Shown here piece by piece: positions 2,415-39,878 of a stretch of DNA of 64,000 nt. The notes under the pieces were generated by a model. The model was not told the origin of the DNA. It ran no database searches and saw nothing but the letters and a program-made list of their open reading frames with translations. The position numbers and the translations under genes were made by a program. The stretch comes from a virus. Within the stretch, counting starts at the first letter, position 1. Each line of letters opens with the position of its first letter. The stretch is taken from the IMG/VR virus record IMGVR_UViG_3300048919_000265. The stretch is one strand, 5' to 3'.

Positions 2415-2436
2415 TATGTACGCTGATTGCTCAGCG
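2415..2436 (-). promoter_or_regulatory. Hairpin + TACATA motif, copy A
   Basis: Minus strand CGCTGA-GCAA-TCAGCG then TACATA; 23 nt before the ATG at 2391. Confidence 0.6.
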
Positions 2437-2442
2437 AGTGAT

Positions 2443-2793
2443 TCATTCATACCCGAAACTCGACATACTCTCCAACATATTTTCTAACTTCTGCACCTCA
2501 GATTTTTTGGTTTCCAAGGTTTCTTTTAAAATGCTAACTCTGTCATTCACTAATTTAAAAGCTGCATCGTACTCACTGCGCTCATACTCATACAAAAGTT
2601 CCTTACCCCAAAAAACATTCATTACAACCTTATAGTAAAATCTATCCGCCTCGAAAGAAAAGGCATATTCTTTATCCATCCCACCATACACTATTTCCAC
2701 AATATTTCCCTCATGACGGTCCCCATAAATCTTTTGAACAACAAAACATAGCTCTTTCTCCATTGCCTGTCTCTCCCTTATTTGAGTTTCCAA
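2443..2793 (-). CDS. Hypothetical protein with C-terminal coiled coil, 116 aa
   Basis: ORF track; heptad-like LKETLETKKSEVQKLENMLE. Confidence 0.7.
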   Translation of the reverse strand: METQIRERQAMEKELCFVVQKIYGDRHEGNIVEIVYGGMDKEYAFSFEADRFYYKVVMNVFWGKELLYEYERSEYDAAFKLVNDRVSILKETLETKKSEVQKLENMLESMSSFGYE

Positions 2794-2796
2794 ATA

Positions 2797-3033
2797 TTAA
2801 TTTTTACGGAGCTTAATAACTTTATTCGTTTCCTTACCACAACTTCTTCTGTCCCAATCAAGAAAAAGAAACATTACCCCAGAAAGTACTGCTAAGCATG
2901 CCGGAAAGATCAACACAAAAATAGACAAAAGCCAAAAAGTCGACAACGTATCCGAGAAAAACGAAAACACTAACATACTCAACTGTATCCAAAGAAGCAA
3001 TGACCAAACCAACACCGCACTAGGAATTCTCAA
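2797..3033 (-). CDS. Small two-TM membrane protein, 78 aa
   Basis: Two hydrophobic segments and a basic tail. Confidence 0.7.
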   Translation of the reverse strand: MRIPSAVLVWSLLLWIQLSMLVFSFFSDTLSTFWLLSIFVLIFPACLAVLSGVMFLFLDWDRRSCGKETNKVIKLRKN

Positions 3034-3037
3034 ACTC

Positions 3038-3340
3038 TCATCTCCCTAACTCTTCATTTGTGATTAATATACTAACTCCATCAATACCCACAACCATAAT
3101 CCCTTCTTCTACTTCAACAAAGGTTGTCTGTTTCTTGATCTCTTTCCTTTTAATTCTTACTACAGAACTCTTAATTTCACCTGCCCAACAAAGCAAACCT
3201 AAATAAATTATTAGCGCAACAACCGCGCTAATAATCAATGCAAACACAAAATTCCATTTCGTTAATTCATCAATAAATGCCAGAGAAGTAACAAACATAC
3301 TACTCCATAGGTACAAAATATAACCGCACGTACCTTTCAT
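3038..3340 (-). CDS. Small two-TM membrane protein, 100 aa
   Basis: Hydrophobic N-terminal half; RBS AGGAGG. Confidence 0.7.
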   Translation of the reverse strand: MKGTCGYILYLWSSMFVTSLAFIDELTKWNFVFALIISAVVALIIYLGLLCWAGEIKSSVVRIKRKEIKKQTTFVEVEEGIMVVGIDGVSILITNEELGR

Positions 3341-3351
3341 CCCAATTCCTC

Positions 3352-3855
3352 CTAATCGAGATCTAACGCTTCCATTTCTTCCTGTCCTTCTTCCTCCACG
3401 TCCTCAACAAAACCACACATAGCTAGCATCCCTTTATCTCCCAAAACCCTAATACTATCTGACAAGATTCTTCTTAGCTCCGATCCCTGCACATTCAATC
3501 CTTGTTCAGTCAGACCAATACTATAATTGTCCATCCCTTCCAATGCACGCAACACCCCGACTACAAAACTTGCTGTAAAGTCCCACGCTAAATCGTCAAA
3601 TGCCAACAGTACCCTATCATTCACTATCAAATTCCTATTAACAAATTGATAGAGTTTTACTGCTGCTTCTTTCGCAACTACAGAATCCTTAATCTCTTCG
3701 CCTGTAGTCTTATACACCTTAATTGCGCTTTCATAATGAGTATAATAATTCTTCATATGACCTCTCTGCAATGCGACCACAGATGCGCGCTTATTTTTAA
3801 AGCCATCCGAAAAATTTAAAACAACCGCCATTACCACCACTCCTTTTCGCTGCAA
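3352..3855 (-). CDS. Hypothetical protein (probable start MAVVLN at 3831)
   Basis: ORF track; AAGGAG upstream of the ATG at 3831. Confidence 0.75.
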   Translation of the reverse strand: MQRKGVVVMAVVLNFSDGFKNKRASVVALQRGHMKNYYTHYESAIKVYKTTGEEIKDSVVAKEAAVKLYQFVNRNLIVNDRVLLAFDDLAWDFTASFVVGVLRALEGMDNYSIGLTEQGLNVQGSELRRILSDSIRVLGDKGMLAMCGFVEDVEEEGQEEMEALDLD

Positions 3856-3860
3856 CTACA

Positions 3861-3883
3861 TATGTACTGGGAGAGTCTCCCAG
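3861..3883 (-). promoter_or_regulatory. Hairpin + TACATA motif, copy B
   Basis: Minus strand CTGGGAG-ACT-CTCCCAG then TACATA; 29 nt before the ATG at 3831. Confidence 0.6.
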
Positions 3884-3955
3884 CTTCTTACCCAGCCTAA
3901 TAAGGCAACCTATCTTTTCACCTTAATATAAACTAACTCCACTTTAATCTACGGT

Positions 3956-4561
3956 TTAAGATTTTCCATCTTCTAAATAAAACACATTACACACTGGCTC
4001 TAACTTAAGGGCTATATTATTACTACCAGTCTCTTGTCTCGTGACAAGTCTACACAACCCGTGTACTGAGTGAATAAGATGCACCTTCCTAACTTCCCTA
4101 ATTCCCCTTTGGTAGAAATCAAAGAATTTAGACGTTCTAAACTCTACGTTCTCTACAAAAGCAGCAACCTGCAATTGCTCTGTAGAAAAGCGCTCTGACA
4201 CAATTTTAGCCAATTTACTTAAAGATTCATCCAGATTAGCATTAAATACTTCAAACTCCATATTAACCTCAGAGTCGTCAATATCGATAACCGTTAAATC
4301 CCCTACATGTAATTGAACATAACCATAAATCTTAGGATTAAACCTCAGCATTTTATCATTTAACTCTAAGGTCCCTCTAACATACCCATGTCCTGAATTC
4401 TTTAAGAGCTTCTCATTTTCTGGAGTAGCTTCTACATAATACACTCCACCTTGTTTTATCATAGTGACCACTTCTTTTGACTGGTTAAAACAAAGTAAGC
4501 GTGGTTCCTCTAATACTTCCGAGTCTCCCATATTAACCAACATAAGATACTGTTTAAGCAC
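3956..4561 (-). CDS. Hypothetical protein, 201 aa
   Basis: ORF track; RBS AGGAGG. Confidence 0.8.
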   Translation of the reverse strand: MLKQYLMLVNMGDSEVLEEPRLLCFNQSKEVVTMIKQGGVYYVEATPENEKLLKNSGHGYVRGTLELNDKMLRFNPKIYGYVQLHVGDLTVIDIDDSEVNMEFEVFNANLDESLSKLAKIVSERFSTEQLQVAAFVENVEFRTSKFFDFYQRGIREVRKVHLIHSVHGLCRLVTRQETGSNNIALKLEPVCNVFYLEDGKS

Positions 4562-4597
4562 TTACTATTCCTCCTATAAATATGATACACAACTATG

Positions 4598-4819
4598 CTA
4601 ATTCTCTCTGCGCGAAAGAACAATCAAATTACTTCCAGAATGCTCTTCCTTTCTAGTTGCAATGTCAAACATTCGTTCGATGCTTTCTAATTCGTTTTGT
4701 GCTACAAGATAGGAAGCATAGCTTGATACAGCTTTCTTTTGTTCGGGTGTGAGTTTTTCAAACACTTTGCTGAACTCGTTAATATTCATTTGGAGCACCT
4801 CCGAAGGATCGTATTTCAT
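4598..4819 (-). CDS. Hypothetical helical protein, 73 aa
   Basis: ORF track. Confidence 0.6.
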   Translation of the reverse strand: MKYDPSEVLQMNINEFSKVFEKLTPEQKKAVSSYASYLVAQNELESIERMFDIATRKEEHSGSNLIVLSRREN

Positions 4820-4875
4820 ATTAAGGTAACAAAACTACTTCCTACCATATCACCCCTCTACCTTAATAGACGCTG

Positions 4876-4903
4876 GGGAATAGCCACAGTCTTGGCTATT
4901 CCC
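4876..4903 (-). terminator. 11-bp inverted repeat, terminator-like but without a U tract
   Basis: GGGAATAGCCA-N6-TGGCTATTCCC overlapping the stop of 4896..5207. Confidence 0.4.
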
Positions 4904-5207
4904 TTGTAGTAAAACTTGCAACGAGGTACTTATAAACCCCTTGTTCCTGCGCTTCTTTAATGACTTCCTCGACCCATGAAACCTCTTCCTTAATGATGGA
5001 GGCAATCAATGAAACGTCTTCACCTTTGCGATGCATGTAGCAAATAAAGCCAGCAACAGAATGAGGACCTGCATAAAAATACTCAGTAGCTTGTGCTGTT
5101 GTAATTTCCTTCTCTTTCATACCTCTATCACTACTGGCTTGTGTAACACCTTCCTTTTTCGGTACACTGCCGCCTTTAGCTTTACCAAATCTCTCCATCA
5201 AATTCAT
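4896..5207 (-). CDS. Hypothetical protein, 103 aa
   Basis: ORF track; ATGA overlap with the upstream gene, RBS GGAGG. Confidence 0.75.
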   Translation of the reverse strand: MNLMERFGKAKGGSVPKKEGVTQASSDRGMKEKEITTAQATEYFYAGPHSVAGFICYMHRKGEDVSLIASIIKEEVSWVEEVIKEAQEQGVYKYLVASFTTRE

Positions 5208-6247
5208 GTTGATTCCTCCTGTCCAGTCATCATTCTATTTAAAATATCAGATGCATCTGACATTATTTCTTCGGTATCATCGGTGTCTTTCATACTATCT
5301 GTAATCAGAGAGGTAAGACTCTCGACAACCTCAGAATCGTTACGTTTACCACTAAACAACATGCTTTTAGCACCACCAACTACCTCCAATAAACGATCCT
5401 TAATACTATTATCTCCCAATTCCCCATGTTCAGTGTTATAAAAGCCCACTAGCATGCTCATCGTCAGATAGGGCTCCAGTAACGTAGATTTCAGCAGAAC
5501 AGTAACGATCTTATATGTGATCAAAAACACTAACAAAGTCTTAGCACCAGAAGACCACAACATTACAATTGCACTAATAACAATCACACTATGTAACACC
5601 CACGAAAACAACTTCAACCAAAGCGTGCTAAAGAATGCTGACTTTAATACAGTTTTCCAGCTCTTAAAATAGAGTTGAACTCCTTCTACAATGCCTTCCC
5701 ACGCACTTAAGTCAGGATTACGATACATATGACTTACAACTATCTCATCCACATGGAATAAAACTGTCTTGACTACAGTTTTAAAAAGAGTAACCAGCAT
5801 ACCCTTTTTAAAAATCTCTGGAACAAAGGTTGCTTTGTCTACAACCCATTCAGACGCTTTTGTAAAGGCAGCTCTCATAACCGCATCCGCCAGGGACATA
5901 GCTGACACCGAACCGAATCGTTTCAGCATTTCTTTGAAACCAAAACTAAGACTAGCTGCTTTAACATCACCGCTATTCAAAAGCTCTGTTGCACTTGCCA
6001 CCTGTGCATACTTTATTAGGTGCCCTAAAAACTTTCTGGCCAACTCAATATAAATAATAAAAACAACCAAGCCAATATAACCAAACATAATATCAGCTAT
6101 CAGTAAACCTTCCAACCCCGTCAATTTCCTGAAGAATGATACTCCCCATCTAATCGCATAAAACCCAGGAATTATTGCAGCCAAGTTAACCACTAACCGC
6201 AAGATCAAAAATTGATACGTCAAACACATCAACCTAAAGGCTCCCAT
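5204..6247 (-). CDS. Multi-pass membrane protein of unknown function, 347 aa
   Basis: Several TM segments; internal HVDE...YRNP...AWEG...GVQLY stretch; acidic C-terminal tail. Confidence 0.8.
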   Translation of the reverse strand: MGAFRLMCLTYQFLILRLVVNLAAIIPGFYAIRWGVSFFRKLTGLEGLLIADIMFGYIGLVVFIIYIELARKFLGHLIKYAQVASATELLNSGDVKAASLSFGFKEMLKRFGSVSAMSLADAVMRAAFTKASEWVVDKATFVPEIFKKGMLVTLFKTVVKTVLFHVDEIVVSHMYRNPDLSAWEGIVEGVQLYFKSWKTVLKSAFFSTLWLKLFSWVLHSVIVISAIVMLWSSGAKTLLVFLITYKIVTVLLKSTLLEPYLTMSMLVGFYNTEHGELGDNSIKDRLLEVVGGAKSMLFSGKRNDSEVVESLTSLITDSMKDTDDTEEIMSDASDILNRMMTGQEEST

Positions 6248-6912
6248 TACCTCTCCTCATTCCGATCAATAAAATGATACAAAAATTTCAACCCTTTTAA
6301 TGTCTCCAATAATTCAGATAAGCTAGCGTAATCAGACTCTAAATAATACTTATATTCTGGTCCAAAATGAGCCAGAAATTCGGTCGCAGAGAAACTAAAT
6401 GATTTAGTGAAAAACTCCATATAAACTCTGCCCTTAAAGTTAGTACCTTTACTCACATCAGTACACTTATCATAAACTTTTACGCGATTGATATGCAAAT
6501 AACTAGACTTCACAAGATCCAAGGGAACAGCCAACCTCAGATCCATTTCTATCTTCTGTGCAGATGACAACTTCCCAATATATTCATCCAACTGTGCCCG
6601 ACTAATACTAATCAACTGCTCAAAATGAATTTTAGATGAAGGATCCCAGGTCTCGCCAGATGCTAAATCATTTACATTTGTAACCTCCTGCAGAAAAGGA
6701 TATGCTTTCTTATCAGCAGAAGAAACTGGAGCAACAATCAAAATCGGAGAATTCATTCCAAAATTAGATTGACAAACTACACACGGACGACGTCCACTCT
6801 GAACGCTACCATGCTTATCTCTCGGCAACTTTACGTACCATAAATTTCCTTTACCAGTGTAATTAACATCATAACGCATTGTACTTGGTACTACACCTCT
6901 AATTGTGCTCAT
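6247..6912 (-). CDS. mazF: PemK/MazF-family endoribonuclease toxin with ~90-aa C-terminal extension
   Basis: LWYVKLP...GSVQSGRRPCVVCQSN...SPILIVAPVSS...KIHFEQLISIS...YIGKLS follows the B. subtilis MazF (EndoA) pattern GSEQGGVRPVLVIQN...SPTAIVAAIT. Confidence 0.85.
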   Translation of the reverse strand: MSTIRGVVPSTMRYDVNYTGKGNLWYVKLPRDKHGSVQSGRRPCVVCQSNFGMNSPILIVAPVSSADKKAYPFLQEVTNVNDLASGETWDPSSKIHFEQLISISRAQLDEYIGKLSSAQKIEMDLRLAVPLDLVKSSYLHINRVKVYDKCTDVSKGTNFKGRVYMEFFTKSFSFSATEFLAHFGPEYKYYLESDYASLSELLETLKGLKFLYHFIDRNEER

Positions 6913-6928
6913 ATCTCATCAACTCCTA

Positions 6929-7297
6929 CTATTTAACCTTTACCTTTATTCCTGATCCTTCGAACACGACATCAACCAACATAGATAAAAACTCTCGTGT
7001 AAAACCTTCAATCACCAATAAATAAAAAGGGATATACAAATTCTTAATCCCTTTAGTTTTACAATATTTTACTAATTCTAGAAACATAAACTTAAGGTCA
7101 TTACCTGCTAATTTTCGAAATCTGCGTCTTTTATAAACAACTGTCAACACTCTTTCTCGCATAGAGAAAAAGGGAGTAGTTTTAATCTTAAGTTCGTGCA
7201 GATAAGTCGCGTACTCCCTCCGCATCAACTCTCTGTGTTCTGGACCAAGTCCCTTTTTCCTATGCGTAATAAAATTAACTAAAACCAGGTCCTCCAT
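6929..7297 (-). CDS. Degenerate macrodomain-like protein (TARG1-type fold, Gly loop lost), 122 aa
   Basis: C-terminal LVKYCKTKGIKNLYIP...REFLSMLVDVVFEGSGIKVKV resembles the TARG1/OARD1 end (HCLKNGVTDLSMPRIGCG...IEEVFEATDIKITVY). Confidence 0.5.
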   Translation of the reverse strand: MEDLVLVNFITHRKKGLGPEHRELMRREYATYLHELKIKTTPFFSMRERVLTVVYKRRRFRKLAGNDLKFMFLELVKYCKTKGIKNLYIPFYLLVIEGFTREFLSMLVDVVFEGSGIKVKVK

Positions 7298-7305
7298 AAC
7301 TCCTC

Positions 7306-7512
7306 CTATAAAAAGAACCGATACCTCTTATCAACTGCCACACGTAAATCCAGAATCTCTCCCTGAATTCCCGACAAATGATAAAACACACCATTCCTAT
7401 TTCTTACATTCAAACTATAAATTCTCATTAAATTCTTAGAATACCCTTGAGCTTGCCGTAAATATTTTAAGTATAGTAATTGCTTGGTGTACCGCGATAA
7501 GGTGACTTCCAA
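7306..7512 (-). CDS. Small basic hypothetical protein; start uncertain
   Basis: ORF track; frame stays open upstream to about 7600 with no canonical start. Confidence 0.5.
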   Translation of the reverse strand: MEVTLSRYTKQLLYLKYLRQAQGYSKNLMRIYSLNVRNRNGVFYHLSGIQGEILDLRVAVDKRYRFFL

Positions 7513-7604
7513 CCCTATGCGTCCGACTGCTAGTACTTCCAGCCATCGCTTTACTTCCTCTGCAAAAGTCCCTAACTGAAATAATAAATAGCAATACCTA
7601 TCTC

Positions 7605-8933
7605 CTAATACTTATAATTAAAATGAGGATTAGAAGTAAACATGATATCAGGCAACTTACCTTCGACACCTGTTATATGCTTATAACTGATCCAAGATTT
7701 TTCATTATCAAACCCAAGGGCTTTCATCAAGCCATCAGACTGATCGATAATCTTATTAACTGCCCGGTGTCCTAGTTGTATCTTTGAGAACTCTTTAAAT
7801 GTAACATCGCTCTCAATAGCATTCGCTCTAAGTTCAAGCAGCCACTCTTGAACTTTACTAGCAACTAATTTATAATCCAAGTCTTCTACCTTTTCATTGA
7901 CACAAAGTAATTCCATTCTCAAAGCAGAATAGTAATCAACAACAAGTCCATATCTGTTCTCCATATCCCAAATCACACTACTAACACTAAGAACATGACT
8001 CAAATCAAGAACCACGAATCTGCTGTCCGCTTTAGTAAACCTAACGTACAAACGCCTTAGATCTTCCTCATAAACTTCACGAGATTGATCATTCGTAACC
8101 TTTTGCAAACCATAGCCATTGGGTGCAGCATCAAAATCCTGCAAACTCAAATACGCTAATAAATCTCTGTGCTCTACAGAGCCTTTTTCTCCTTCGTCAT
8201 AGAAATTACGCAATTTGTCTAAATAATGGGCATAAAGTCCTTTATAACTATCTGAACAAAACTGTGTAAATGAAACTTCTTCAAGGCCTTCTTGAGAAAG
8301 ATATAATTTAGACCAAAATAAACTTAATAAAAGCTCCCACTCCCGTACTATACGCACATGACCTATATAAACTATTCCAAAAACATCTTTCAAATCTTCA
8401 GTTAGTTCGTTATTAGTCATCTGACCATATGTTAACTTCTGTAAAAACCTAAAGTCTTCTGCATATGCACGTAACAATTCTTTGTCTTCCCATAACACAT
8501 AATTTACTGGCCTAGGTTGGGGCTTCCCCACCACCAATGACATTCGATCATCAAAAGATTCCATTCCTGCTACATTAAGACTCTTTTGATTATCTACATT
8601 TTTAAGTGATCTCGCCTGAGATAGCTCTGTCAATGCTTGCACATAAATATCTTTAGAGAAAAATGGAAATTCAGAAACCAAGTAATCTCCGATTTCAACA
8701 AGATCAACACGTGTAGTTTGTTTACCCACAATGAAATCAGCTATCACACGCTTTATGAAAATAAGCAACATCCTTCTTAATTCCTTACTTTTATAAATAC
8801 CCTCATTCCCAGGAGTCTTATTATACTTATAAGACTCCTTAACAGGAACTAAATAATACCCTGTACCATATCCAGTAATATGAAAGCCATATGGAGCTTC
8901 CACAGGGAAAACTTTAGTGAACACTGAACTCAT
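7605..8933 (-). CDS. Hypothetical protein, 442 aa
   Basis: Long ORF; RBS AGGAGG; no recognised motif. Confidence 0.85.
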   Translation of the reverse strand: MSSVFTKVFPVEAPYGFHITGYGTGYYLVPVKESYKYNKTPGNEGIYKSKELRRMLLIFIKRVIADFIVGKQTTRVDLVEIGDYLVSEFPFFSKDIYVQALTELSQARSLKNVDNQKSLNVAGMESFDDRMSLVVGKPQPRPVNYVLWEDKELLRAYAEDFRFLQKLTYGQMTNNELTEDLKDVFGIVYIGHVRIVREWELLLSLFWSKLYLSQEGLEEVSFTQFCSDSYKGLYAHYLDKLRNFYDEGEKGSVEHRDLLAYLSLQDFDAAPNGYGLQKVTNDQSREVYEEDLRRLYVRFTKADSRFVVLDLSHVLSVSSVIWDMENRYGLVVDYYSALRMELLCVNEKVEDLDYKLVASKVQEWLLELRANAIESDVTFKEFSKIQLGHRAVNKIIDQSDGLMKALGFDNEKSWISYKHITGVEGKLPDIMFTSNPHFNYKY

Positions 8934-8944
8934 TGACAGACCTC

Positions 8945-9223
8945 CTACAGACCTGACCAGATTTTAAAATCATACCACTTGTCGTAAATCCAATCCTGCA
9001 CACCAGATATTGTCTGATTTCCTTCAACAACCCGGTTAAATTCGTTATCAGCGTTATCTCCGAGAACTGTTGTTGAATCCCACACATTATGCCATAATAA
9101 ATAAATACAAACTATGACAGCAACAACGCCAATAATTCCTCGAATCACTCCAGAAAAATATCTTAATACCAGCATAGCTGCACAAGCTATCGCAATAATA
9201 AGCACTATCCCTGTAATATCCAT
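8945..9223 (-). CDS. Small two-TM membrane protein, 92 aa
   Basis: Two N-terminal TM helices. Confidence 0.75.
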   Translation of the reverse strand: MDITGIVLIIAIACAAMLVLRYFSGVIRGIIGVVAVIVCIYLLWHNVWDSTTVLGDNADNEFNRVVEGNQTISGVQDWIYDKWYDFKIWSGL

Positions 9224-9226
9224 AAC

Positions 9227-10342
9227 TCACCCCGGTATCTCTTCGTAAGGCATACTAGCTTTCAAATACTCCAAATGCTTACCCTTAAGAAGTTTCTTTC
9301 TAAATACATAAGCTATGATCTGATTATTATTTAAGCCCAAATTAAATTGCCAACGTATAGCGAGGCTTACACTCAAACTGTCTATAATTGTAACAGTCAA
9401 AGGCGCCGCACTGGCAGCGATTCGAAAATTATCCAGAGGAGAATTTTTGTCAGTCCACTTCAAAGCAACTATACCATTATTTATGATGTCAGCCACAAAA
9501 GGACCAGCCAATTCCTTTTTATTATTCAATAGTTCAGGGGCTATAAGTCGATAAAACACTAATACGCTACCATAATAACTTTTAGTGCCAGCAATAACTT
9601 TTTTACCATCTTCACTAAAATGTTTTGCTTTATATCCGTGATATAAACCACATGCATCGAAGCTATCATAATCAGTACTCATACACCGTCTATAGAATTC
9701 TGCTAATTCAGGAAATTTGTCAACAATGTCCGCTGCTATTTCGCTTTTATTATTAAACCTACCTGTGCCTTTACTCTTATCAATCATTTCAGACTTCCAG
9801 CTCTGCGGCATTATGAAATGCCGCTTATTTTCAGGTACCTTAGAGAATAGAGAATCTTCTGCAAACCATGAATTAAGAACGCCACGTAATTCACGTAACA
9901 CGTTACCTGCATTACGTCTACCTGCAACCGGAGGAATGTCCTCCGTGACAACCATGGAAAGTGTAGAACCTTTAAGAAGACCTCTAATAAATCCTTTCAC
10001 TTCCCGATAAAATCCATATTTATCTCCACTATTACGCTGAAAGTCACATATAAAATGAAACCTATTATCTACATCCGTAACATAGATACCCACACATTTA
10101 CTGGAAGCGTCTATACCTAACTCGTATTCTCCTCCGGTAGGAAGAGTGACATCCAACGAATCAGACATCTGTCTTCTATAAACGGGGTTAAATCTTCCTT
10201 CCAAATGATCCCTTTTTATTTGCCCCTCAAACAAACGTTTCCTTTCCTGCACTTCTTCCTCATTTCGTTCAGAGTCTCCATCACTCTTATACGTACTCAA
10301 ACACCCCACCCTAGAAATAAAACCAAAAGAAACAAAAGCCAC
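9227..10342 (-). CDS. RuvC-like (RNase H fold) Holliday-junction-resolvase-type nuclease with N- and C-terminal extensions
   Basis: LGIDASSKCVGI (catalytic D), VVTED (E), LRELRG, PQSWK, YDSFDACG (D) in the RuvC order. Confidence 0.75.
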   Translation of the reverse strand: MAFVSFGFISRVGCLSTYKSDGDSERNEEEVQERKRLFEGQIKRDHLEGRFNPVYRRQMSDSLDVTLPTGGEYELGIDASSKCVGIYVTDVDNRFHFICDFQRNSGDKYGFYREVKGFIRGLLKGSTLSMVVTEDIPPVAGRRNAGNVLRELRGVLNSWFAEDSLFSKVPENKRHFIMPQSWKSEMIDKSKGTGRFNNKSEIAADIVDKFPELAEFYRRCMSTDYDSFDACGLYHGYKAKHFSEDGKKVIAGTKSYYGSVLVFYRLIAPELLNNKKELAGPFVADIINNGIVALKWTDKNSPLDNFRIAASAAPLTVTIIDSLSVSLAIRWQFNLGLNNNQIIAYVFRKKLLKGKHLEYLKASMPYEEIPG

Positions 10343-10353
10343 AACCTCACCTC

Positions 10354-11025
10354 CTAAAAACTAACACCTGCCATGATTTCACTTAAATTCATACTTCCGA
10401 AGGTTTCACCTATCTGATCATTACTAGCGCTCTCACCTTTAATCATACGATAAACACTTTTTGGATCATATCCGTCTTGCATAAAGAGTATAGACAACTT
10501 AATATCCTCAACACTAGTTATTTGTTCTTTTTTCATAACACTAGCTAATTCTAGAAAATTAGTTATCTGTAAATCCTTAATAACTTTAAAAGAACGTCTA
10601 GAAAACCCTGTGTCTAAGACACTAATTTGTTCGGTTTTAAATATACTAGAAACACCGCACAACATTTGCATTTTTCTATCAGCTAACACCAAGTTATTTA
10701 GTACCTGATAAAAAGTCAAACCACTCTTTTCAACAACCTGTGAATACAGCACCATAATATTTATAAGTCCACCACCACGATCACATGAAAAACAATGGCA
10801 CCGATTATTTAACTCATCTACACCCATGGAAGGAGTCTTATCTGCGTGAAAAGGGCATTTTATAACCACCTCATTAAGACGTTTATTCTCCGCTTCATTC
10901 CAAGCAAGCTTGGATTTAAGGAATTTCTCAAAAGTGTACTCTTCAGATTCCCTAATGTAAGATAGTACTTTACTTACTGCCTCCTGATTAACTACTCTCA
11001 ACTTCATCGCGATACAACCTCCCAA
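10354..11025 (-). CDS. Stand-alone CHC2 (DnaG-type) zinc-finger protein with no TOPRIM domain; probable start 11007
   Basis: CPFHADKTPSMGV...CHCFSCDRGG motif; 223 aa with no TOPRIM EG/DxD motifs. Confidence 0.85.
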   Translation of the reverse strand: MGGCIAMKLRVVNQEAVSKVLSYIRESEEYTFEKFLKSKLAWNEAENKRLNEVVIKCPFHADKTPSMGVDELNNRCHCFSCDRGGGLINIMVLYSQVVEKSGLTFYQVLNNLVLADRKMQMLCGVSSIFKTEQISVLDTGFSRRSFKVIKDLQITNFLELASVMKKEQITSVEDIKLSILFMQDGYDPKSVYRMIKGESASNDQIGETFGSMNLSEIMAGVSF

Positions 11026-11038
11026 TTAGAACTTTCAA

Positions 11039-11062
11039 TATGTAGGGAGGGACAAGCCCTCC
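11039..11062 (-). promoter_or_regulatory. Hairpin + TACATA motif, copy C
   Basis: Minus strand GGAGGG-CTTGT-CCCTCC-C-TACATA; 31 nt before the ATG at 11007. Confidence 0.55.
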
Positions 11063-11067
11063 TCGCA

Positions 11068-12933
11068 TCATTCCCCAATTCCATACTCTTCGTGTTGTAC
11101 TCTTGTCGGCTCTACAATCTTTACAGCCTTACCAGAATACTTAGCAATAACAATAGACACATCACGCAGTGTAATGTTTCCATCCTTATATTGATTAACC
11201 GCTTGCAGCACCTCTTGTTTGGCCTCAGATTCCAATCGTTGAGCAAAACTTGTCCACTTAATAATACGTCTTTCTTCGGCTGTAAGTTCTTTCTTCTCTG
11301 CCGTCTTACCAAAAAGATTTACAAGTTCGACCTCTTTAATACCGTTAGGGGTTTCGACACTAACCTTCAACAAACCATCCGTGTCAATTGCCATAACAAT
11401 ATAAACTGGTACCTTGCCAGCCTCTTTCTTAGGAAGATTATCAACGACAATACTGCCTAAATACAGACACTCTTCCTTCAATACAGATAATCCCTCATAA
11501 ACCTCAATTTGCACTACTTCCTGATTATCGTACTTCGTGGTATACATCCGACGATCAGTATGCGGCACACGTTGGTTTTTCTTAATCACCGTACTAACAT
11601 GTCCATCACTAATAACACCAATATTCTGCGGAATAACGTCAAACACTTCGATATTAGTATCACCGAACTTTGTCTCTTTTGCCTTTATAGCTGCTCCCAT
11701 AGCGACGCTCTCATCTGGATTCAAAGCACTATTAATCTGAACTCCAGGGAAATCCTTGCGCAAAAACTCCTTAATAACTTCCGACTTGGTGCTACCACCA
11801 ACAAGCACAATAGCGTCAATCCGACTCTTATCTGTACGATTTAACACTTCATCTACTAGTTTCTTAGTTTTTAAATACACCACTTCAGTAGCTGCTCTAA
11901 TATCAGAAGGTTGAATATCAACTTGTTCTTCCAGCACACCTGCACCACTCTTGAGTGGGAACTTCATCTTGACCCCATACGAGTGACCCACACCTTGCAA
12001 TTTTATCTTTTCCATACGCAGAATCAATTTCTCTTTTTCCTGTCTTGGGATTAGGTCAGTATTAACTCCACGAGACCGCAACTTTCCTTCAAGAATCTTG
12101 TAAAGTTCCAAATCGATATCATCACCACCCAACTTGGAATCCCCACTCGTGTCTAACACGCTATACTTCTTAGAGAAAACAGAATCGTCTCCATCTTCAA
12201 CCTCTATACCATACAAATCCGCAAGTTCGTCACCTAATCCACTAGAAATACTAATACGCAACAGAGAAGCATCAAATGTACCACCACCCAAATCATACGC
12301 AAGAATGGTTTGCTCTGCCTCCTCTTGTTCAGAACCCACATCATAAACAAGGGTAGCGGCAGTAGGTTCTCTTAAAATCCCAAGTAAACTAAGTCCAGCA
12401 AGCTCTGCTGCTAGCTTAGTATCTGTGATTTGCTTATTATCGAAATAAGCCGGCACAGTAATAACTACATCTTTAACATCTTTATACTGAACACTAGCTT
12501 GTTTAACAAGCTCCTTCAAAATCTCTGCTGAAACTTCGGCTGGAGTCATTACAAGTTCTTTAGTTCCATACTTCAAAGTAACCGATTCTCCAGAACCCAT
12601 TTTACGTTTCACTGAATAAACAGCACTTTGTTTATATCTATTCACATAAGCTTCTTTACCTACAACAAATTCTCCCTTTTTACCTTTCCACATAATAACC
12701 GAGGGTAAAGTTTTAGCTCCGTTATTAAGCTCAATAACCCTAGGTACATTTCCTGCTTGAACTACACTGATGCAACTATTTGTTGTCCCTAAATCGATAC
12801 CAAACGCCGGTGTTTTGATTCCTTCTTTTCCTAAGAAGTCACTAGTAACTTCTCCAAACGCATTCATTGGTTTTACCATTACACTATCTCCCTTTTCCAT
12901 TAATATGTAGTCACACAAAAATAAATACAACAC
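11068..12933 (-). CDS. Hsp70/DnaK-family chaperone, divergent; probable start MVKPM at 12879
   Basis: GIDLGTTNS, TVPAYF, EPTAA, YDLGGGTFD, LGGDDID, VLVGGST, NPDESVAMGAA, DVIP; substrate-binding beta domain and a short lid. Confidence 0.95.
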   Translation of the reverse strand: MLYLFLCDYILMEKGDSVMVKPMNAFGEVTSDFLGKEGIKTPAFGIDLGTTNSCISVVQAGNVPRVIELNNGAKTLPSVIMWKGKKGEFVVGKEAYVNRYKQSAVYSVKRKMGSGESVTLKYGTKELVMTPAEVSAEILKELVKQASVQYKDVKDVVITVPAYFDNKQITDTKLAAELAGLSLLGILREPTAATLVYDVGSEQEEAEQTILAYDLGGGTFDASLLRISISSGLGDELADLYGIEVEDGDDSVFSKKYSVLDTSGDSKLGGDDIDLELYKILEGKLRSRGVNTDLIPRQEKEKLILRMEKIKLQGVGHSYGVKMKFPLKSGAGVLEEQVDIQPSDIRAATEVVYLKTKKLVDEVLNRTDKSRIDAIVLVGGSTKSEVIKEFLRKDFPGVQINSALNPDESVAMGAAIKAKETKFGDTNIEVFDVIPQNIGVISDGHVSTVIKKNQRVPHTDRRMYTTKYDNQEVVQIEVYEGLSVLKEECLYLGSIVVDNLPKKEAGKVPVYIVMAIDTDGLLKVSVETPNGIKEVELVNLFGKTAEKKELTAEERRIIKWTSFAQRLESEAKQEVLQAVNQYKDGNITLRDVSIVIAKYSGKAVKIVEPTRVQHEEYGIGE

Positions 12934-13008
12934 GCTTAAATCATTGGTCTAAGTCGTATGACTGCCTGACCCAATACCATAAGTATTTCTGTCTTTATTC
13001 GACCGCCC

Positions 13009-13506
13009 TTAATCAAATAACTGTAATGAAGGATGTGCAATTGTGACTTCCAAGTCTGTAACCTCGAAATTCTTGTAAATCAATTCAAGAACACTTAATT
13101 CGTCCAAACCTCCAACACCACATCCTAATAGCGGTAAGGTGACGCTATTAAATCTGTGCTCCAAACATAAGTCAACCACTTTAACTAAACATCTCTCTAC
13201 ACACCCTAAAGAAGAAGATTTCCCTGGCTTTTCCATAGTAACTGCATGAAAGACAGTAGGTTTAAACTCTAACATACCTGGTGTGATGAAAACATCACCT
13301 ATACCAGGCTTCCCTAATTTGGCTTGCTTCATTGCAAGTTTTTCTATCCTACCGTGTGTCCTGCGATTAAGTGCCTGAGCCACACCACCAAACTTTAAAA
13401 ACCTAGAAAGAAATCCTCCCATCCAACCAAGAGAATTTGCCGCATTTACAACTACTTCCGTGTTTGCAGCACAAATATCCCTAATAACTTTGTACCTTCC
13501 TGCCAA
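13009..13506 (-). CDS. Macrodomain (ADP-ribose binding/hydrolase) protein, 165 aa
   Basis: VVNAAN...MGG...GGVAQAL, GDVFIT, VFHAVT, VTLPLLGCGVGGL. Confidence 0.9.
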   Translation of the reverse strand: MAGRYKVIRDICAANTEVVVNAANSLGWMGGFLSRFLKFGGVAQALNRRTHGRIEKLAMKQAKLGKPGIGDVFITPGMLEFKPTVFHAVTMEKPGKSSSLGCVERCLVKVVDLCLEHRFNSVTLPLLGCGVGGLDELSVLELIYKNFEVTDLEVTIAHPSLQLFD

Positions 13507-13554
13507 TTAATCCACCCCATCCCTCTTTTATTATAACTGTCATGCAAACACATG

Positions 13555-13836: not shown

Positions 13837-13943
13837 AATTCTCCCCTTGGTCCCTTAATTTTACCAACCTTTTTAACAGGAGTTCGTAACCATACAAACC
13901 AATCACCTCAATAACCTTCAACTATGTAAGACATGCTGCAACT

Positions 13944-14600: not shown

Positions 14601-14614
14601 TTACCCTCCTTCTT

Positions 14615-15131: not shown

Positions 15132-15140
15132 AACGCCACC

Positions 15141-17980: not shown

Positions 17981-18000
17981 TATGTAAGCCCTAGCGGGCT
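17981..18000 (-). promoter_or_regulatory. Hairpin + TACATA motif, copy D
   Basis: Minus strand AGCCC-GCTA-GGGCT then TACATA; 16 nt before the ATG at 17964. Confidence 0.6.
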
Positions 18001-19175: not shown

Positions 19176-19252
19176 TCCTCAATATTAATTATATATGTAC
19201 GTCGATGATACCCATAATTTAACCTGTTGTAATGCTGAGAATCCTATTTCCC

Positions 19253-27208: not shown

Positions 27209-27221
27209 TTATGTACAACCC

Positions 27222-27273
27222 CTCTATAATAATATGTAAGACTTTGTACTCTCACTTACATATTATTATAGAG
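27222..27273. repeat. Perfect 19-bp inverted repeat with 14-nt spacer
   Basis: CTCTATAATAATATGTAAG (27222-27240) and CTTACATATTATTATAGAG (27255-27273); each arm contains TATAAT and the TACATA/TATGTA hexamer. Confidence 0.9.
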
Positions 27274-34218: not shown

Positions 34219-34244
34219 TATGTAGGGGAGGAACTAATCCCTCC
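34219..34244 (-). promoter_or_regulatory. Hairpin + TACATA motif, copy F
   Basis: Minus strand GGAGGGA-TTAG-TTCCTCC-CC-TACATA; 26 nt before the ATG at 34192. Confidence 0.55.
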
Positions 34245-38200: not shown

Positions 38201-39612
38201 GCAGTAGCGGAATCCTCTGTAGCATCTTCTCCAGTTTCTGTCGTTTTTGTAGCAGTCTCTGCTGTATTGCTCTCCTGAGTTTGTTGTTGTTGCTGAGCTT
38301 GCTGCTGTTGCCAGTTAACTGAATTCTCCTTGTAAAATCCCCATGAATTTGCATCGTCCCCAACCTGTTTAAAATCTCCTCTATGGGTTACAAATCCAGA
38401 CACATCTTCAGAATCCACTCTATTTATGAATTCCTTAATCGTCAATCTTTTGCCACTTCCCGCATAGGTTGGAAAACTCGCCTTATCAGTAGAGGCATCC
38501 CCAAAAACTGAATCCCACCAACCGGCATCCTCAATGACATATAGCGGCTTACGATAGTCTTTCAATTGGTTATACAAATTCAATATCTTTTTAGATTTAG
38601 TAGCATCTCCCGAAGTCAGATATGCTAAGGCATCCAAGTACTCTTTATCACCAGCGTGGCTAGAGAAAGGCTTGTAGACGGAAGTAGCTGCAATCATGGC
38701 AACATAAGTATCTCGCAATTTAAATTTATTATCCCCATCACCATGTCCTACGGTTGGTTTCCACGCATCAGCTTCGTAATCTGTAACTGAAGCCCCTTCT
38801 TTTGGTTCTACCCATGCTAACTTCTGGATGCTCTTCACAGCACTGTCGTCATAATCGACATTACCAACTTGCACACTTTCTTCTTCCGATAACTGCTTAC
38901 CTTTATCCAATAACTCCGAATATTTTGAGTTACTAATTATACTATTAGCAGCTGTACTAGAAGTTAAGACCGAGGTAGGATCATTATCCATTGTGTTACT
39001 ATCTGTACCTAGCATTGCTTGCATTTCTGCCTGTTCTTGAGTCAATACCTGTAACACACTATAAATGTACCGCAGATTATCTTTGTTATCTGCAATAAAT
39101 TTTTCCGAATCCGCACCTGCCTGGTCATACTCAGCTCTAAATGTTTTTAATACTTCCTCTAAATAGTCAGGCACAGTCGAATTCAAATATTGACTAACAG
39201 CCTTATTAAATCCGCTTGTACCGCCAGTGCCAACAGAAAGCTTCAGCGCTTTATAGTAAAACTTTTCATCGGCTGCAGCTGTTGAATCCTTTGAATATCG
39301 AAGATTAAACTCTGAGTAATTCTGTATTAACTCATCTCGATAAATTTTCTTCTCTGCTTCACTAAATTCTAGGCTAGGAGCTTTAGTCATTAATTCGGTC
39401 CATCTAGTAGATAGCGTTAAGTAGTAGAGATTATACAAGAGACCATATTGCCCCTCATACTTATTCTCAAATGCAGAATTATATCCCTTTATTTTACTTA
39501 CAATCATCCATTTTAGATCTTCCGTATTTGTGGGATCAGCCCTACCAACCGGTAATGGAACACTCATAATAAGAATACATATAGAAAGGAGCACCACCAT
39601 AACCTTTCTCAT
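35236..39612 (-). CDS. Giant multi-pass envelope protein, 1458 aa; candidate VirB6-like component
   Basis: Signal peptide, large extracellular region with poly-Q/Thr-rich linker, TM pair near residue 830, several more TMs near residues 1230-1340. Confidence 0.6.
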   Translation of the reverse strand: MRKVMVVLLSICILIMSVPLPVGRADPTNTEDLKWMIVSKIKGYNSAFENKYEGQYGLLYNLYYLTLSTRWTELMTKAPSLEFSEAEKKIYRDELIQNYSEFNLRYSKDSTAAADEKFYYKALKLSVGTGGTSGFNKAVSQYLNSTVPDYLEEVLKTFRAEYDQAGADSEKFIADNKDNLRYIYSVLQVLTQEQAEMQAMLGTDSNTMDNDPTSVLTSSTAANSIISNSKYSELLDKGKQLSEEESVQVGNVDYDDSAVKSIQKLAWVEPKEGASVTDYEADAWKPTVGHGDGDNKFKLRDTYVAMIAATSVYKPFSSHAGDKEYLDALAYLTSGDATKSKKILNLYNQLKDYRKPLYVIEDAGWWDSVFGDASTDKASFPTYAGSGKRLTIKEFINRVDSEDVSGFVTHRGDFKQVGDDANSWGFYKENSVNWQQQQAQQQQQTQESNTAETATKTTETGEDATEDSATAKTTEAVQPSTTPTNLTAGEAVKPVVTMADEQVNSTDWTSSLFEFGYADGYPITGLALLKNFIKQNITAANIEHADSRSVFINAFGDIVADDNMIIIPAAANPMLYDETMGYNPYTVAFMNGYPSIYIPEGSKDLKLGSPQDEGKFLLMTEGESLDSKPIFINVQGDQNLSISHAKQSIAIYRDFVDVGQGKSPMLARSEAGIPGWWDRRAGMLNFYTDDMRAVVINSAVLPNKVPVFPYTTSQDTNRSLRNLIAYNMYWSYINSGNSESANFNGRLREDYIFRNILVEGLGGSIYASAYDRNMTESYTKMSDDEYNRFKRNFVKFSRDILESLGKVDGVLGIKNQYQDPILGKVMTVVRDYFWYVFVLLALILLVKFMRMRMTLLYMLIFSVFAATTIFLFIRVFPVYLPGVYNLAANNISKNLSYQVLATKAEKYATTYGKDGTIGPDGKLSISTTSLNLYKLSDKDLQTVADRYKLSVRELSSGKVTMLDSKNGIYLEGDTLKVNVDTLMANNPITGAYDPDQGTSRYVYTAQKMNSSVLDYYTPYYEVVDGFTGTLNKLLEVYNIPKHSTKYKDGLEKDSFVVYSYINSIPFLTPEDFSKANDGASPEELAKLKSVFQTPGDFLGLNEIISKPTPEVKETLWYQTLEQNGFLSNTQESKEKYRNLITDVNYQTKKFIIDFKPQVGMMSDENLIKIISIYATTILNQKASEYANWLYPFSLNYQEFTMKDVMLAAMTDDYSRFIAEDMDVATYVANETDIFTLLVFLLVLLFAFLIVLCTQFLVPVLYIGLGLLLIGRYVAGEKVWPALAGYIKVSLILLLCFTVFVWSLGASTYFNIYVVIYGLCIIFGLILFILSQIVSAIIFNWTEMGNSKINDKLKWLLDKVHLGEVVDNLKVKTTNIFNKNEEVVAVPQDQTNRYDLSISLSEMEDAAVDDEYIRRTLRRNRKPIRTETYVSASSEISKSDSGNDFTHGALEEDIKRYKN

Positions 39613-39803
39613 AACATCACCTTACCTCTAATAATCTCTGGTATTTTCAGTATACCTAACCTAATATAATTATGATAGGCATTAAAAGATGCTAATCTAC
39701 TCCTAGCTAAACTTTGGTATGAAGTTGTAATTAATTTCGTAAAATTACTATTTCCTGATGATCTATAACAAAACAAACTTTCTAACCTGCTTAATGCCAT
39801 CAT
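39609..39803 (-). CDS. Small basic hypothetical protein, 64 aa
   Basis: Strong RBS AGGAGG; ATGA-type overlap with the 1458-aa gene. Confidence 0.55.
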   Translation of the reverse strand: MMALSRLESLFCYRSSGNSNFTKLITTSYQSLARSRLASFNAYHNYIRLGILKIPEIIRGKVML

Positions 39804-39849
39804 TACCCTCCTACAATAAAAATTATATTCAGCGCACAGTTTAACGCCG

Positions 39850-39878
39850 TATGTAAGTTAGGCAGAAACCTGCCTAAC
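39850..39878 (-). promoter_or_regulatory. Hairpin + TACATA motif, copy G
   Basis: Minus strand GTTAGGCAG-GTTT-CTGCCTAAC-T-TACATA; 46 nt before the ATG at 39803. Confidence 0.6.

What the first reader, a model, noticed from the sequence alone, without database searches (positions are those of the whole stretch)
2415..39878. Recurring 'GC hairpin + TACATA' intergenic motif: candidate element-specific promoter or non-canonical terminator
Seen: six intergenic sites where a short GC-rich stem-loop with unrelated stem sequence is followed within 0-2 nt by TACATA on the coding strand (2415-2436, 3861-3883, 11039-11062, 17981-18000, 34219-34244, 39850-39878). The hexamer also occurs in the 19-bp IR (27233) and, without a clean hairpin, at 12904, 13923 and 19194. 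In nine cases it lies 16-46 nt (mostly 23-31 nt) upstream of a start codon, about the spacing of a -10 element plus a short leader. Conserved structure with variable stem sequence implies the fold matters. Established: coliphage N4 virion RNAP recognises hairpin promoters, and canonical intrinsic terminators need a U tract, which these lack. Inference: either a promoter read by an element-modified polymerase (the window encodes its own alpha subunit and GreA), a terminator abutting a -10-only promoter, or an RNA processing site.
Basis: partly seen in the sequence, partly recalled or inferred. Interest (0 to 1): 0.82.

Follow-up and report, generated by a model that had tools for sequence, protein, structure and literature searches.

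The report
Hairpin-guarded MazF cut sites between genes
Between the genes of this giant Bacillota mobile element, a protective RNA hairpin is repeatedly followed by UACAUA, the exact six-letter cutting site of the RNA-cutting toxin MazF; the element carries its own antitoxin-less MazF, so these junctions most likely mark where its long messages are cut, not where transcription starts.

Summary
On the coding (minus) strand, TACATA occurs 11 times in 2.6 kb of intergenic DNA and 7 times in 61 kb of coding DNA. It is the most enriched intergenic hexamer, above the ribosome-binding site.

The motif holds across one clade of related 160-230 kb elements: 42 intergenic against 34 coding copies (21.7-fold, P=3.5e-33). 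In 28 of 42 sites a stem of unrelated sequence ends 0-2 nt before the hexamer.

All 18 one-mismatch variants together show no enrichment. The hexamer often abuts, and twice follows, the Shine-Dalgarno sequence, so it cannot be a -10 box.

U^ACAUA is the published strict cut site of Bacillota MazF/EndoA. The window holds an orphan MazF-family gene (6247-6912), present at the same gene-order position in four motif-bearing elements and missing there in four motif-less relatives, though this reflects a single clade.

Best reading (about 0.6): selected MazF cut sites at gene junctions, with the hairpin shielding the upstream fragment. A private-polymerase start site (about 0.2) is not excluded.

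This scan has noted the same hairpin-UACAUA layout on other DNA (gut phages, an SPbeta-like prophage). I found no published description.

The parts
2415..2436 (-). Hairpin (6-bp stem, GCAA loop, 2421-2436) directly followed by UACAUA (2415-2420). It lies 23 nt upstream of the start of a 92-aa zinc-ribbon gene.
3861..3883 (-). Hairpin (7-bp stem, 3-nt loop) directly followed by UACAUA (3861-3866), 29 nt upstream of the start of a 159-aa gene.
11039..11062 (-). Hairpin (6-bp stem, 5-nt loop), 1 nt, then UACAUA (11039-11044), at the junction between the Hsp70-like gene and the DnaG zinc-ribbon gene. The same junction carries hairpin+UACAUA in L003 (19756) and L026 (5450).
17981..18000 (-). Hairpin (5-bp stem, GCUA loop) directly followed by UACAUA (17981-17986), 16 nt upstream of the DnaB-like helicase start. 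The hexamer is conserved here in 7 elements, with a hairpin of unrelated stem sequence in 6 of them.
34219..34244 (-). Hairpin (7-bp stem with one G-U pair; the stop codon of the upstream gene lies in the loop), 2 nt, then UACAUA (34219-34224). It lies 26 nt upstream of a 439-aa gene in the envelope-protein block.
39850..39878 (-). Hairpin (9-bp stem, 4-nt loop), 1 nt, then UACAUA (39850-39855), 46 nt upstream of a 64-aa gene that precedes the 1458-aa gene.
12904..12909 (-). UACAUA with no strong hairpin, 24 nt upstream of the Hsp70-like start (ATG at 12879). L026 has a hexamer 26 nt upstream of its Hsp70 gene.
13923..13928 (-). UACAUA with no hairpin, 15 nt after the stop of the macrodomain gene.
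19194..19199 (-). UACAUA 27 nt upstream of the DUF3850 gene start. A hairpin lies 32 nt further upstream, and a TATAAT overlaps the 3' side.
27210..27273 (-). Leader of the HRDC gene. A 19-bp perfect inverted repeat (arms 27255-27273 and 27222-27240) holds one UACAUA (27233-27238) in its 3' arm. A second UACAUA (27210-27215) lies between the Shine-Dalgarno sequence and the ATG, and L002 has a hexamer in that same position.
6247..6912 (-). Orphan MazF/PemK-family endoribonuclease gene (221 aa) with a conserved C-terminal extension of about 90 aa. It is the candidate enzyme for the sites.
   Evidence: Pfam PF02452, E=6e-17. The family profile hits S. aureus MazF, B. anthracis PemK and B. subtilis EndoA first. 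The catalytic Arg is kept and an invariant Ser sits at the Thr48 position. The gene is syntenic in L025, L023/24 and L026/27.
5204..6247 (-). 347-aa membrane-like protein whose start overlaps the MazF-like stop. This pairing is found in every element where the MazF-like gene was seen. Its role is unknown; a partner or regulator is possible.

Best explanation
The hexamer is read in RNA, not DNA. UACAUA on the sense strand is a MazF/EndoA-type cut site (cut between U and A) that selection has placed at gene junctions of the element's long same-strand transcripts.

At about two thirds of the sites a GC-rich hairpin ends 0-2 nt before the hexamer. After cutting, the upstream message would end in a stem with a 1-3 nt overhang, which should block 3'-to-5' exonucleases. 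The downstream piece would start a few nucleotides before an unstructured Shine-Dalgarno region.

The cutter is most likely the element's own antitoxin-less MazF-family RNase (6247-6912), the host's canonical MazF, or both. The outcome is either constitutive maturation of polycistronic RNA into separate units, or a MazF-gated switch that uncouples or shuts off the downstream gene (the helicase, primase-like, Hsp70-like, HRDC and envelope-block genes) while sparing the upstream one.

Shown here: the motif, its strand bias, its exactness, its conservation, its coupling to the hairpin, and the presence of the RNase gene. Inferred: that cutting happens, which enzyme does it, and what it does to expression.
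For: 1. The hexamer is identical to the published strict six-letter MazF/EndoA site U^ACAUA. That site is cut only when A follows UACAU, it is conserved for the B. subtilis, Listeria and S. aureus enzymes, and MazF is present in about 80% of Bacillota species (PMC11780869; bioRxiv 10.64898/2026.08.06.743204).

2. Enrichment is all-or-none. The exact hexamer is enriched 23.6-fold, while the 18 one-mismatch variants together are at 0.97-fold.

3. The motif is strand-specific and sits in leaders: 42 intergenic against 34 coding copies, P=3.5e-33, with the antisense strand at 2.3-fold.

4. Structure lies only on the 5' side. 67% of upstream 30-mers fold at -6 kcal/mol or better, against 5% of downstream 30-mers and 7% of random ones. 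Spacing is fixed at 0-2 nt, while the distances to the stop and start codons vary widely. The published work reports decay spreading about 250 nt to both sides of a cut and into neighbouring cistrons, which gives an insulating hairpin a clear use.

5. The hexamer is conserved at the same junctions with unrelated stems: before dnaB in 7 elements, after Hsp70 in 3, and before HRDC in 2.

6. The window encodes a MazF-family RNase whose nearest solved relatives are the UACAU(A)-specific Bacillota enzymes (4mzm 2.7e-15, 4mdx 7e-11), with catalytic Arg and Ser/Thr kept. The gene is syntenic in all 4 motif-bearing elements where that region is visible and absent from the syntenic region in 4 motif-less relatives.

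7. A prediction made in advance held. New sequence fetched through a MazF-like homologue (L026) showed 7 intergenic against 3 coding hexamers in the part that does not overlap L002, and 5 of the 8 intergenic copies in the whole locus follow a hairpin.

8. In distant relatives the same kind of junction carries a hairpin plus U-tract. In this clade the hexamer sits where the U-tract would be.
Against: There are no RNA data, so cutting is unproven.

Coding regions avoid the hexamer only weakly: 7 against 13 expected in the window (P about 0.04), and 24 against 32 in the clade (P=0.08). The antisense control is similar.

Predicted accessibility of the hexamer is no better than for control hexamers.

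The element's MazF is very divergent (best single-sequence PDB hit 1e-4, to M. tuberculosis MazF9), so its specificity is unknown. The host, and whether it has MazF, is also unknown.

Motif and MazF-like gene map to one clade of the DnaB tree (85/86 support). Their co-occurrence is therefore a single evolutionary event, not independent replication.

Position +7 is T in 31 of 38 sites, and each element has its own extension (for example TACATATTAGTGAA in L003). No published MazF requirement explains this, and it would suit a promoter or another element-specific reader.

The element has its own polymerase, and no other candidate promoter motif is enriched.
Confidence: 0.6

Rival explanations
1. 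TACATA(T) is a short start-site-proximal promoter element, like an initiator, read by the element's own sigma-independent beta-beta' polymerase. The hairpin is the 3' end signal of the preceding unit. Together they would form a gene-end/gene-start junction.
For: The element is reported to encode a fused beta-beta' polymerase with altered sigma-binding parts and an alpha-like subunit (earlier notes; not retested). A GreA-like gene is confirmed.

TACATA is the only non-ribosome-site motif enriched between genes. Sigma-70-type promoter matches are not above chance (52 against 59 expected).

The sites always precede genes. The T at +7 and the element-specific extensions of up to about 14 nt resemble phage-type promoters. 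Other clades have their own motif in the same place, for example hairpin + AATTTAGTAATTA in L007.
Against: It would be a coincidence that the motif equals the exact strict MazF site in a Bacillota element that also encodes a MazF.

There is no degeneracy at all, and nothing is conserved upstream.

The fixed 0-2 nt spacing to a hairpin of variable sequence is not needed for a promoter placed next to a terminator.

The hexamer lies between the Shine-Dalgarno sequence and the ATG of the HRDC gene in two elements.

The 32 kb of replisome, pilus and alpha-subunit genes (window 40-64 kb plus L001) have no copy at all.
Confidence: 0.2
2. Hairpin + UACAUAU is a non-canonical transcription terminator or pause signal, for the host or the element polymerase, in which the hexamer replaces the U-tract.
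For: The hexamer occupies the position of the U-tract, 0-2 nt after the stem. In distant relatives the same kind of junction carries a hairpin plus U-tract.
Against: A third of the sites have no hairpin yet are conserved before genes. An exact six-letter requirement is not how a weak RNA-DNA hybrid works. The tail has only 3-4 U in 8 nt, and none of the six window sites passes the terminator scan. Full termination would leave the genes immediately downstream without a promoter.
Confidence: 0.07
3. UACAUA is the binding site of some other sequence-specific RNA- or DNA-binding regulator, for example a translational repressor acting beside the ribosome site, unrelated to MazF.
For: The hexamer lies close to the Shine-Dalgarno sequence, and between the Shine-Dalgarno sequence and the ATG at the HRDC gene. 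The motif is exact, and one copy lies in a 19-bp palindrome that looks like an operator.
Against: No candidate binding protein was identified. This reading does not explain the abutting hairpin or its fixed spacing. It again needs a coincidence with the MazF site.
Confidence: 0.08

Closest known systems
MazF/EndoA (NdoA) cleavage of U^ACAUA in Bacillota (Taggart et al. 2025, PMC11780869; Frenkel et al. 2026, bioRxiv 10.64898/2026.08.06.743204)
   Same: The six-letter motif on the transcript strand is identical and appears to need an exact match. A MazF-family RNase gene is present, and the setting looks like Bacillota (strong GGAGG ribosome sites).
   Different: Published sites are scattered, mostly inside genes, and act as decay triggers for a host regulon. 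Here they are concentrated 22-fold between genes, coupled to an upstream hairpin, and conserved at the same junctions across elements. The local enzyme has no adjacent antitoxin, carries an extra C-terminal domain and is very divergent.
MazF interplay of arbitrium phages phi3T and SPbeta (Guler et al. 2024, preprint 10.1101/2023.04.27.537455; PMC10769878)
   Same: A mobile element whose transcripts are enriched in MazF sites and whose life cycle reads or steers MazF activity.
   Different: In those phages the enrichment was reported as UACAU density inside reading frames, with phage-made MazF inhibitors or activators. No hairpin-coupled junction sites and no phage-borne MazF were described there.
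Intercistronic RNA processing in phages and organelles: RNase III sites between phage T7 genes, RegB cutting GGAG in T4 early messages, and 3' stem-loops as stability elements in chloroplast mRNAs (from general knowledge, not checked here)
   Same: Long polycistronic RNA is cut at defined junctions, and a stem-loop is left at the new 3' end as an exonuclease block.
   Different: The cut signal here would be a single-stranded exact hexamer beside the stem rather than inside it, and the nuclease would be a toxin-family enzyme.
Rho-independent terminator
   Same: A GC-rich stem-loop lies just after a stop codon, with a defined tail starting 0-2 nt after the stem.
   Different: There is no U-tract; the tail is an invariant UACAUA.
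Coliphage N4 virion-polymerase hairpin promoters (from general knowledge)
   Same: A short hairpin lies just upstream of a possible RNA 5' end.
   Different: N4 hairpins have 5-7 bp stems, 3-nt loops and conserved bases, and are read by a giant single-subunit polymerase. Here loops are 3-9 nt, stems share no sequence, a third of the sites lack a hairpin, and the conserved part lies outside the hairpin.

Membership tests
Bacillota MazF/EndoA cut site (U^ACAUA) | Exact hexamer UACAUA on the transcribed strand | tested here: met
   11 intergenic sense copies in the window and 42 in the clade. The antisense strand shows only 2.3-fold enrichment.
Bacillota MazF/EndoA cut site (U^ACAUA) | Strict specificity: single-base variants are not used | tested here: met
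   Exact hexamer 23.6-fold; the 18 one-mismatch variants pooled 0.97-fold. This is an enrichment pattern, not a cleavage assay.
Bacillota MazF/EndoA cut site (U^ACAUA) | Site is single-stranded in the RNA | tested here: inconclusive
   Predicted unpaired probability is 0.46, against 0.48 for control hexamers. The hexamer starts just outside the stem and the downstream 30 nt are unstructured. One copy (27233) lies inside a 19-bp stem.
Bacillota MazF/EndoA cut site (U^ACAUA) | A MazF enzyme with this specificity is available | tested here: inconclusive
   A MazF-family gene is present with catalytic Arg and Ser/Thr, and its nearest solved relatives are the UACAU(A) enzymes. Its specificity is unknown, and the host and the host's MazF are unknown.
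Bacillota MazF/EndoA cut site (U^ACAUA) | Cleavage between U and A, leaving 5'-OH and 2',3'-cyclic phosphate ends | not testable with these tools
   No RNA end data are available for this element.
Type II MazEF toxin-antitoxin module | Adjacent MazE-type antitoxin gene | tested here: not met
   The upstream 122-aa and downstream 347-aa neighbours have no Pfam match, and the downstream one looks like a membrane protein. The same gene order without a MazE recurs in L023, L025 and L026.
Rho-independent terminator | GC-rich stem-loop | tested here: met
   Stems of 5-12 bp, folding at -6 to -17 kcal/mol.
Rho-independent terminator | U-rich tract of about 7-9 nt right after the stem | tested here: not met
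   The tail is UACAUAU(U). None of the four hairpin+TACATA sites in the scanned part of the window (1-20000: 2415, 3861, 11039, 17981) is called by the terminator scan; the tails of the other two (34219, 39850) were only read by eye.
Sigma-70-type promoter (-10 element) | Degenerate TATAAT-like hexamer with a -35 box or TG extension, and a start 6-8 nt downstream that leaves the ribosome site on the RNA | tested here: not met
   No degeneracy. No conserved upstream block. The hexamer is 1-3 nt from the Shine-Dalgarno sequence at the dnaB junctions, and lies after the Shine-Dalgarno sequence at the HRDC gene.
N4-type hairpin promoter | 5-7 bp stem, 3-nt loop, conserved hairpin bases, hairpin obligatory | tested here: not met
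   Loops are 3-9 nt and stems and loops share no sequence. 14 of 42 sites have no hairpin.

The most novel reading that the evidence does not exclude
A toxin has been domesticated. The antitoxin-less MazF with a new C-terminal domain would be the dedicated message-maturation nuclease of a clade of giant Bacillota elements, reading a 'hairpin, then UACAUA' punctuation code that splits 60-kb-plus transcripts into stable gene units. It would play the role that tRNA punctuation plays in mitochondria. The same code seems to recur in gut phages noted elsewhere in this scan.
Probability: 0.35. Interest if true: 0.88.

Novelty: new variant of a known kind. Interest (0 to 1): 0.77.

Why it matters
MazF has only recently been recast in Bacillota as a precise, non-lethal regulator with a six-letter site. 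This element would show the other side of that idea: a mobile genome that writes those sites into its own gene junctions, shields the upstream message with a hairpin, and carries its own MazF.

If that is right, three things follow:
- It gives a concrete, testable case of a toxin RNase turned into an RNA-processing or gene-switching enzyme.
- It explains how 200-kb elements transcribed in one direction set the expression of individual genes.
- It provides a sequence signature (stem, 0-2 nt, UACAUA, ribosome site) that can be searched for in phages and plasmids of Bacillota.

If the hexamer instead turns out to be the start signal of the element's private polymerase, that would be the first promoter known for such an enzyme.

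Tried and rejected
- **Whole-replicon count.** No genome is held for this window, and the 212-kb source contig cannot be searched. I used the window plus 8 kb of its contig and about 190 kb from relatives.
- **Other collections.** Phage and plasmid collections gave no DNA match. Genome contigs and viral contigs held no relative of the helicase. The first metagenome scan needed a narrower alignment.
- **Coding-strand avoidance of the hexamer.** Weak and not significant, so it is not used as support.
- **Predicted accessibility of the hexamer.** No signal.
- **Sense against antisense stem stability, to show an RNA-level fold.** No difference, because most stems are perfect Watson-Crick.
- **Word-based homologue searches for the MazF-like protein.** They found only 4-6 clusters and missed the L025 copy, so their silence is not evidence of absence.
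- **Structure of the MazF-like protein.** The nuclease half modelled poorly (pLDDT below 50). The C-terminal domain was confident, but its best PDB matches were PX-like at Z about 5, which is not informative.
- **Rfam.** No family matched in the window.
- **Sigma-70 promoter scan.** Matches were not above chance.
- **Co-occurrence of motif and MazF-like gene.** It holds 4 of 4 against 0 of 4, but both map to a single clade on the DnaB tree, so I count it as consistency, not proof.
- **Rejected readings.** A chance or compositional artefact; a -10 box; an N4-type hairpin promoter.
Full report
**Setting.** Every gene in the 64-kb window is on the minus strand. About 96% of the window is coding, G+C is 37%, and the ribosome sites are strong GGAGG. 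Most proteins match no Pfam or PHROG family. Those that do include a clamp loader, UvrD, RecJ-like, a secretion ATPase, an SNF2 helicase, a DnaB-like helicase, a DnaG zinc ribbon, an Hsp70-like protein, macrodomains, NERD, a GreA-like factor and a MazF/PemK-family RNase. The source is a 212-kb metagenomic contig. Earlier notes of this scan describe it as a giant Bacillota mobile element with its own fused beta-beta' RNA polymerase and an alpha-like subunit; I did not retest that.

**The observation.** All six hairpin+TACATA sites are at the stated coordinates on the sense strand. TACATA is not over-represented in the window as a whole (44 found, 54 expected). Its placement, however, is extreme: 11 of the 18 sense-strand copies lie in 2.6-2.8 kb of intergenic DNA. 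That is a 35-fold excess, the highest of any hexamer, against 9.4-fold for AGGAGG. No base outside the hexamer is conserved in the window.

**Relatives.** The protein after site 17981 is a DnaB-like helicase with homologues on 50-230 kb contigs. I fetched about 20 kb around eight of them, 14 further loci from metagenomes, and four more loci through the MazF-like gene or a neighbouring gene.
- The motif is present in the window, L002/L026, L003/L025, L004, L009, L022 and L023. It is absent from L005-L008 and L010-L019.
- On a DnaB tree the motif-bearing elements form one clade (85/86 support).
- Over non-redundant sequence of this clade there are 42 intergenic and 34 coding sense copies, 21.7-fold, Fisher P=3.5e-33. 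The antisense strand shows 2.3-fold.
- The hexamer recurs at the same junctions with unrelated stems: before dnaB in seven elements, after the Hsp70-like gene in three, and before the HRDC gene in two.

**Coupling to the hairpin.** 28 of the 42 sites have an upstream 30-nt fold of -6 kcal/mol or better, against 6.9% of random positions (P=6e-23). The stem ends 0 nt (8 sites), 1 nt (18) or 2 nt (2) before the hexamer. Meanwhile the distance to the preceding stop codon and to the next start codon (1-146 nt, median 27) varies freely. The 30 nt downstream are no more structured than random sequence (5% against 7.5%). About half of all strong intergenic hairpins in the clade carry the hexamer, and few have a U-tract. 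In the other clades none of 25 hairpins carries it, and many are ordinary hairpin+U-tract terminators placed directly before the ribosome site.

**What the hexamer is not.**
- It is not a -10 box. At the dnaB junctions it sits 1-3 nt from the Shine-Dalgarno sequence (for example TACATA-T-AGGAGG). At the HRDC gene it lies between the Shine-Dalgarno sequence and the ATG, in the window and in L002, so a start 6-8 nt downstream would lose the ribosome site.
- There is no -35 box or other upstream block, and sigma-70-type matches are not above chance.
- It does not behave like a degenerate protein-DNA signal. The exact hexamer is enriched 23.6-fold, while the 18 one-mismatch variants together stand at 0.97-fold.
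- It is not a canonical terminator, because there is no U-tract.
- It is not an N4-type hairpin promoter. Loops are 3-9 nt, the stems share nothing, and a third of the sites have no hairpin.

**What it matches.** I noted early on that UACAU is the classical Firmicute MazF site. The literature then showed the match is exact.
- End-mapping in B. subtilis found that EndoA cuts U/ACAU only when A follows, which gives a strict hexamer U/ACAUA (PMC11780869).
- A 2026 preprint shows that the same six-letter specificity holds for the B. subtilis, Listeria and S. aureus enzymes, and that MazF is present in about 80% of Bacillota species, including Clostridium.
- The same preprint reports that a cut lowers RNA levels about 250 nt to both sides and in neighbouring cistrons, and that a site placed in a 5' leader lowers expression.
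- Transcripts of the arbitrium phages are enriched in MazF sites, and those phages steer MazF.

A hairpin ending 0-2 nt before the cut would leave the upstream fragment with a stem and a 1-3 nt overhang, a natural block to the spreading decay that the papers describe. This explains the fixed spacing, the one-sided structure and the exactness of the motif in a single model.

**The enzyme.** The window's 221-aa MazF-family protein (Pfam E=6e-17) has no MazE-like neighbour. It carries a conserved C-terminal domain of about 90 residues. A profile of the family hits S. aureus MazF (2.7e-15), B. anthracis PemK and B. subtilis EndoA (7e-11) ahead of all other solved MazFs. The catalytic Arg is kept, and an invariant Ser aligns with EndoA Thr48.

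The gene, always followed by an overlapping 347-362-aa membrane-like gene, sits at the same place in the gene order (after the DnaG zinc-ribbon gene and three or four small genes) in the window, L025, L023/24 and L026/27. L027 comes from the same sample as L002 and probably continues that element. In L008, L010/11, L013/19 and L017, which lack the motif, the same region has no such gene.

New sequence reached through a MazF-like homologue (L026) again showed the motif, with 7 intergenic and 3 coding copies in the part that does not overlap L002. Because everything maps to one clade, this is consistency rather than independent replication. The enzyme is very divergent, so its specificity is open, and host MazF could act instead or as well.

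**Weak points.**
- There are no RNA data.
- Avoidance of the hexamer in coding regions is weak.
- Predicted accessibility shows nothing.
- The T at +7 (31 of 38 sites) and the element-specific extensions (TACATATG in L004; TACATATTAGTGAA in L003) are not explained by published MazF rules. They would fit a promoter, or a reader encoded by the element.
- The element has its own polymerase, and no other candidate promoter motif is enriched.
- Other clades show the same layout with other motifs: hairpin + AATTTAGTAATTA in L007, and a two-block motif in L005/6. The slot after the hairpin may therefore be a general signal position whose reader differs by clade.

**Verdict.** The best-supported mechanism (about 0.6) is selected MazF-type cutting at hairpin-guarded gene junctions. 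This would serve either constitutive maturation of long transcripts or a MazF-gated switch over replication and envelope genes. A start signal for the private polymerase inside the hexamer remains a live rival (about 0.2).

Other notes of this scan report the same hairpin-UACAUA layout, sometimes with orphan MazF genes, in gut phages and an SPbeta-like prophage. I reached the MazF reading before seeing them and did not test them. I found no paper describing such junction sites.

Noticed in passing
window 27210-27273: The HRDC-gene leader holds a 19-bp perfect inverted repeat that would bury one UACAUA in a long stem. A second UACAUA lies between the Shine-Dalgarno sequence and the ATG, and L002 (1607) has a hexamer in that same place. 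This could be a structure-gated switch or an operator.
   Followed up: partly
window 25087; L002:3830; L004:4746: A TACATA inside the 251-263-aa gene upstream of the GreA-like gene is kept at the same codon position (Thr-Tyr) in three elements that share only 40-50% protein identity. This suggests a selected internal site.
   Followed up: no
L007 (e.g. 6889, 7200, 13694, 14593): In this AT-rich relative, intergenic hairpins are followed directly by a different conserved motif, about AATTTAGTAATTA, then the ribosome site. The layout is the same, but the signal differs.
   Followed up: partly
L005 and L006 intergenic gaps (e.g. L006:6787-6868, 11609-11678, 14898-15225, 18947-19022): A two-block motif recurs: TTTTCTACA, 17 nt, then (T/A)CCAT(T/A). 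It is followed by TATAAATA close to the ribosome site and looks like a clade-specific promoter.
   Followed up: no
window, all coding sequence (sense strand): TATATA is strongly avoided in coding sequence compared with synonymous-codon shuffles: 21 found, 44 expected, z=-4.1.
   Followed up: no
window 5204-6912; L023:10001-11685; L025:13065-14832; L026:10001-11714: The MazF-like gene is always followed by an abutting or overlapping gene for a 347-362-aa membrane-like protein with no family match (it overlaps the MazF-like stop in the window and L023; gaps of 7 and 28 nt in L026 and L025). This is a conserved pair whose second member could be the regulator or antitoxin.
   Followed up: partly
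L025:13022: In the L003 element a UACAUA lies 37 nt upstream of the MazF-like gene's own start, which could allow self-regulation. The window's copy has none.
   Followed up: no
window 40000-64000 and L001:1-8100: The 32 kb that hold the replisome, pilus-like and alpha-subunit genes have no intergenic TACATA. Their two strong hairpins, in the gaps 48508-48585 (T-rich tail) and 50389-50522, lack the hexamer.
   Followed up: no
L010-L015, L019: Helicase relatives lie on contigs of 137-670 kb, far larger than the roughly 200-kb elements. These could be bigger elements or copies integrated in chromosomes.
   Followed up: no
L002:17778, 19538; window 2421-2436: Several stems are capped by RNA-type stable tetraloops (C-UUCG-G twice, GCAA once), a hint that the fold matters in RNA.
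   Followed up: no
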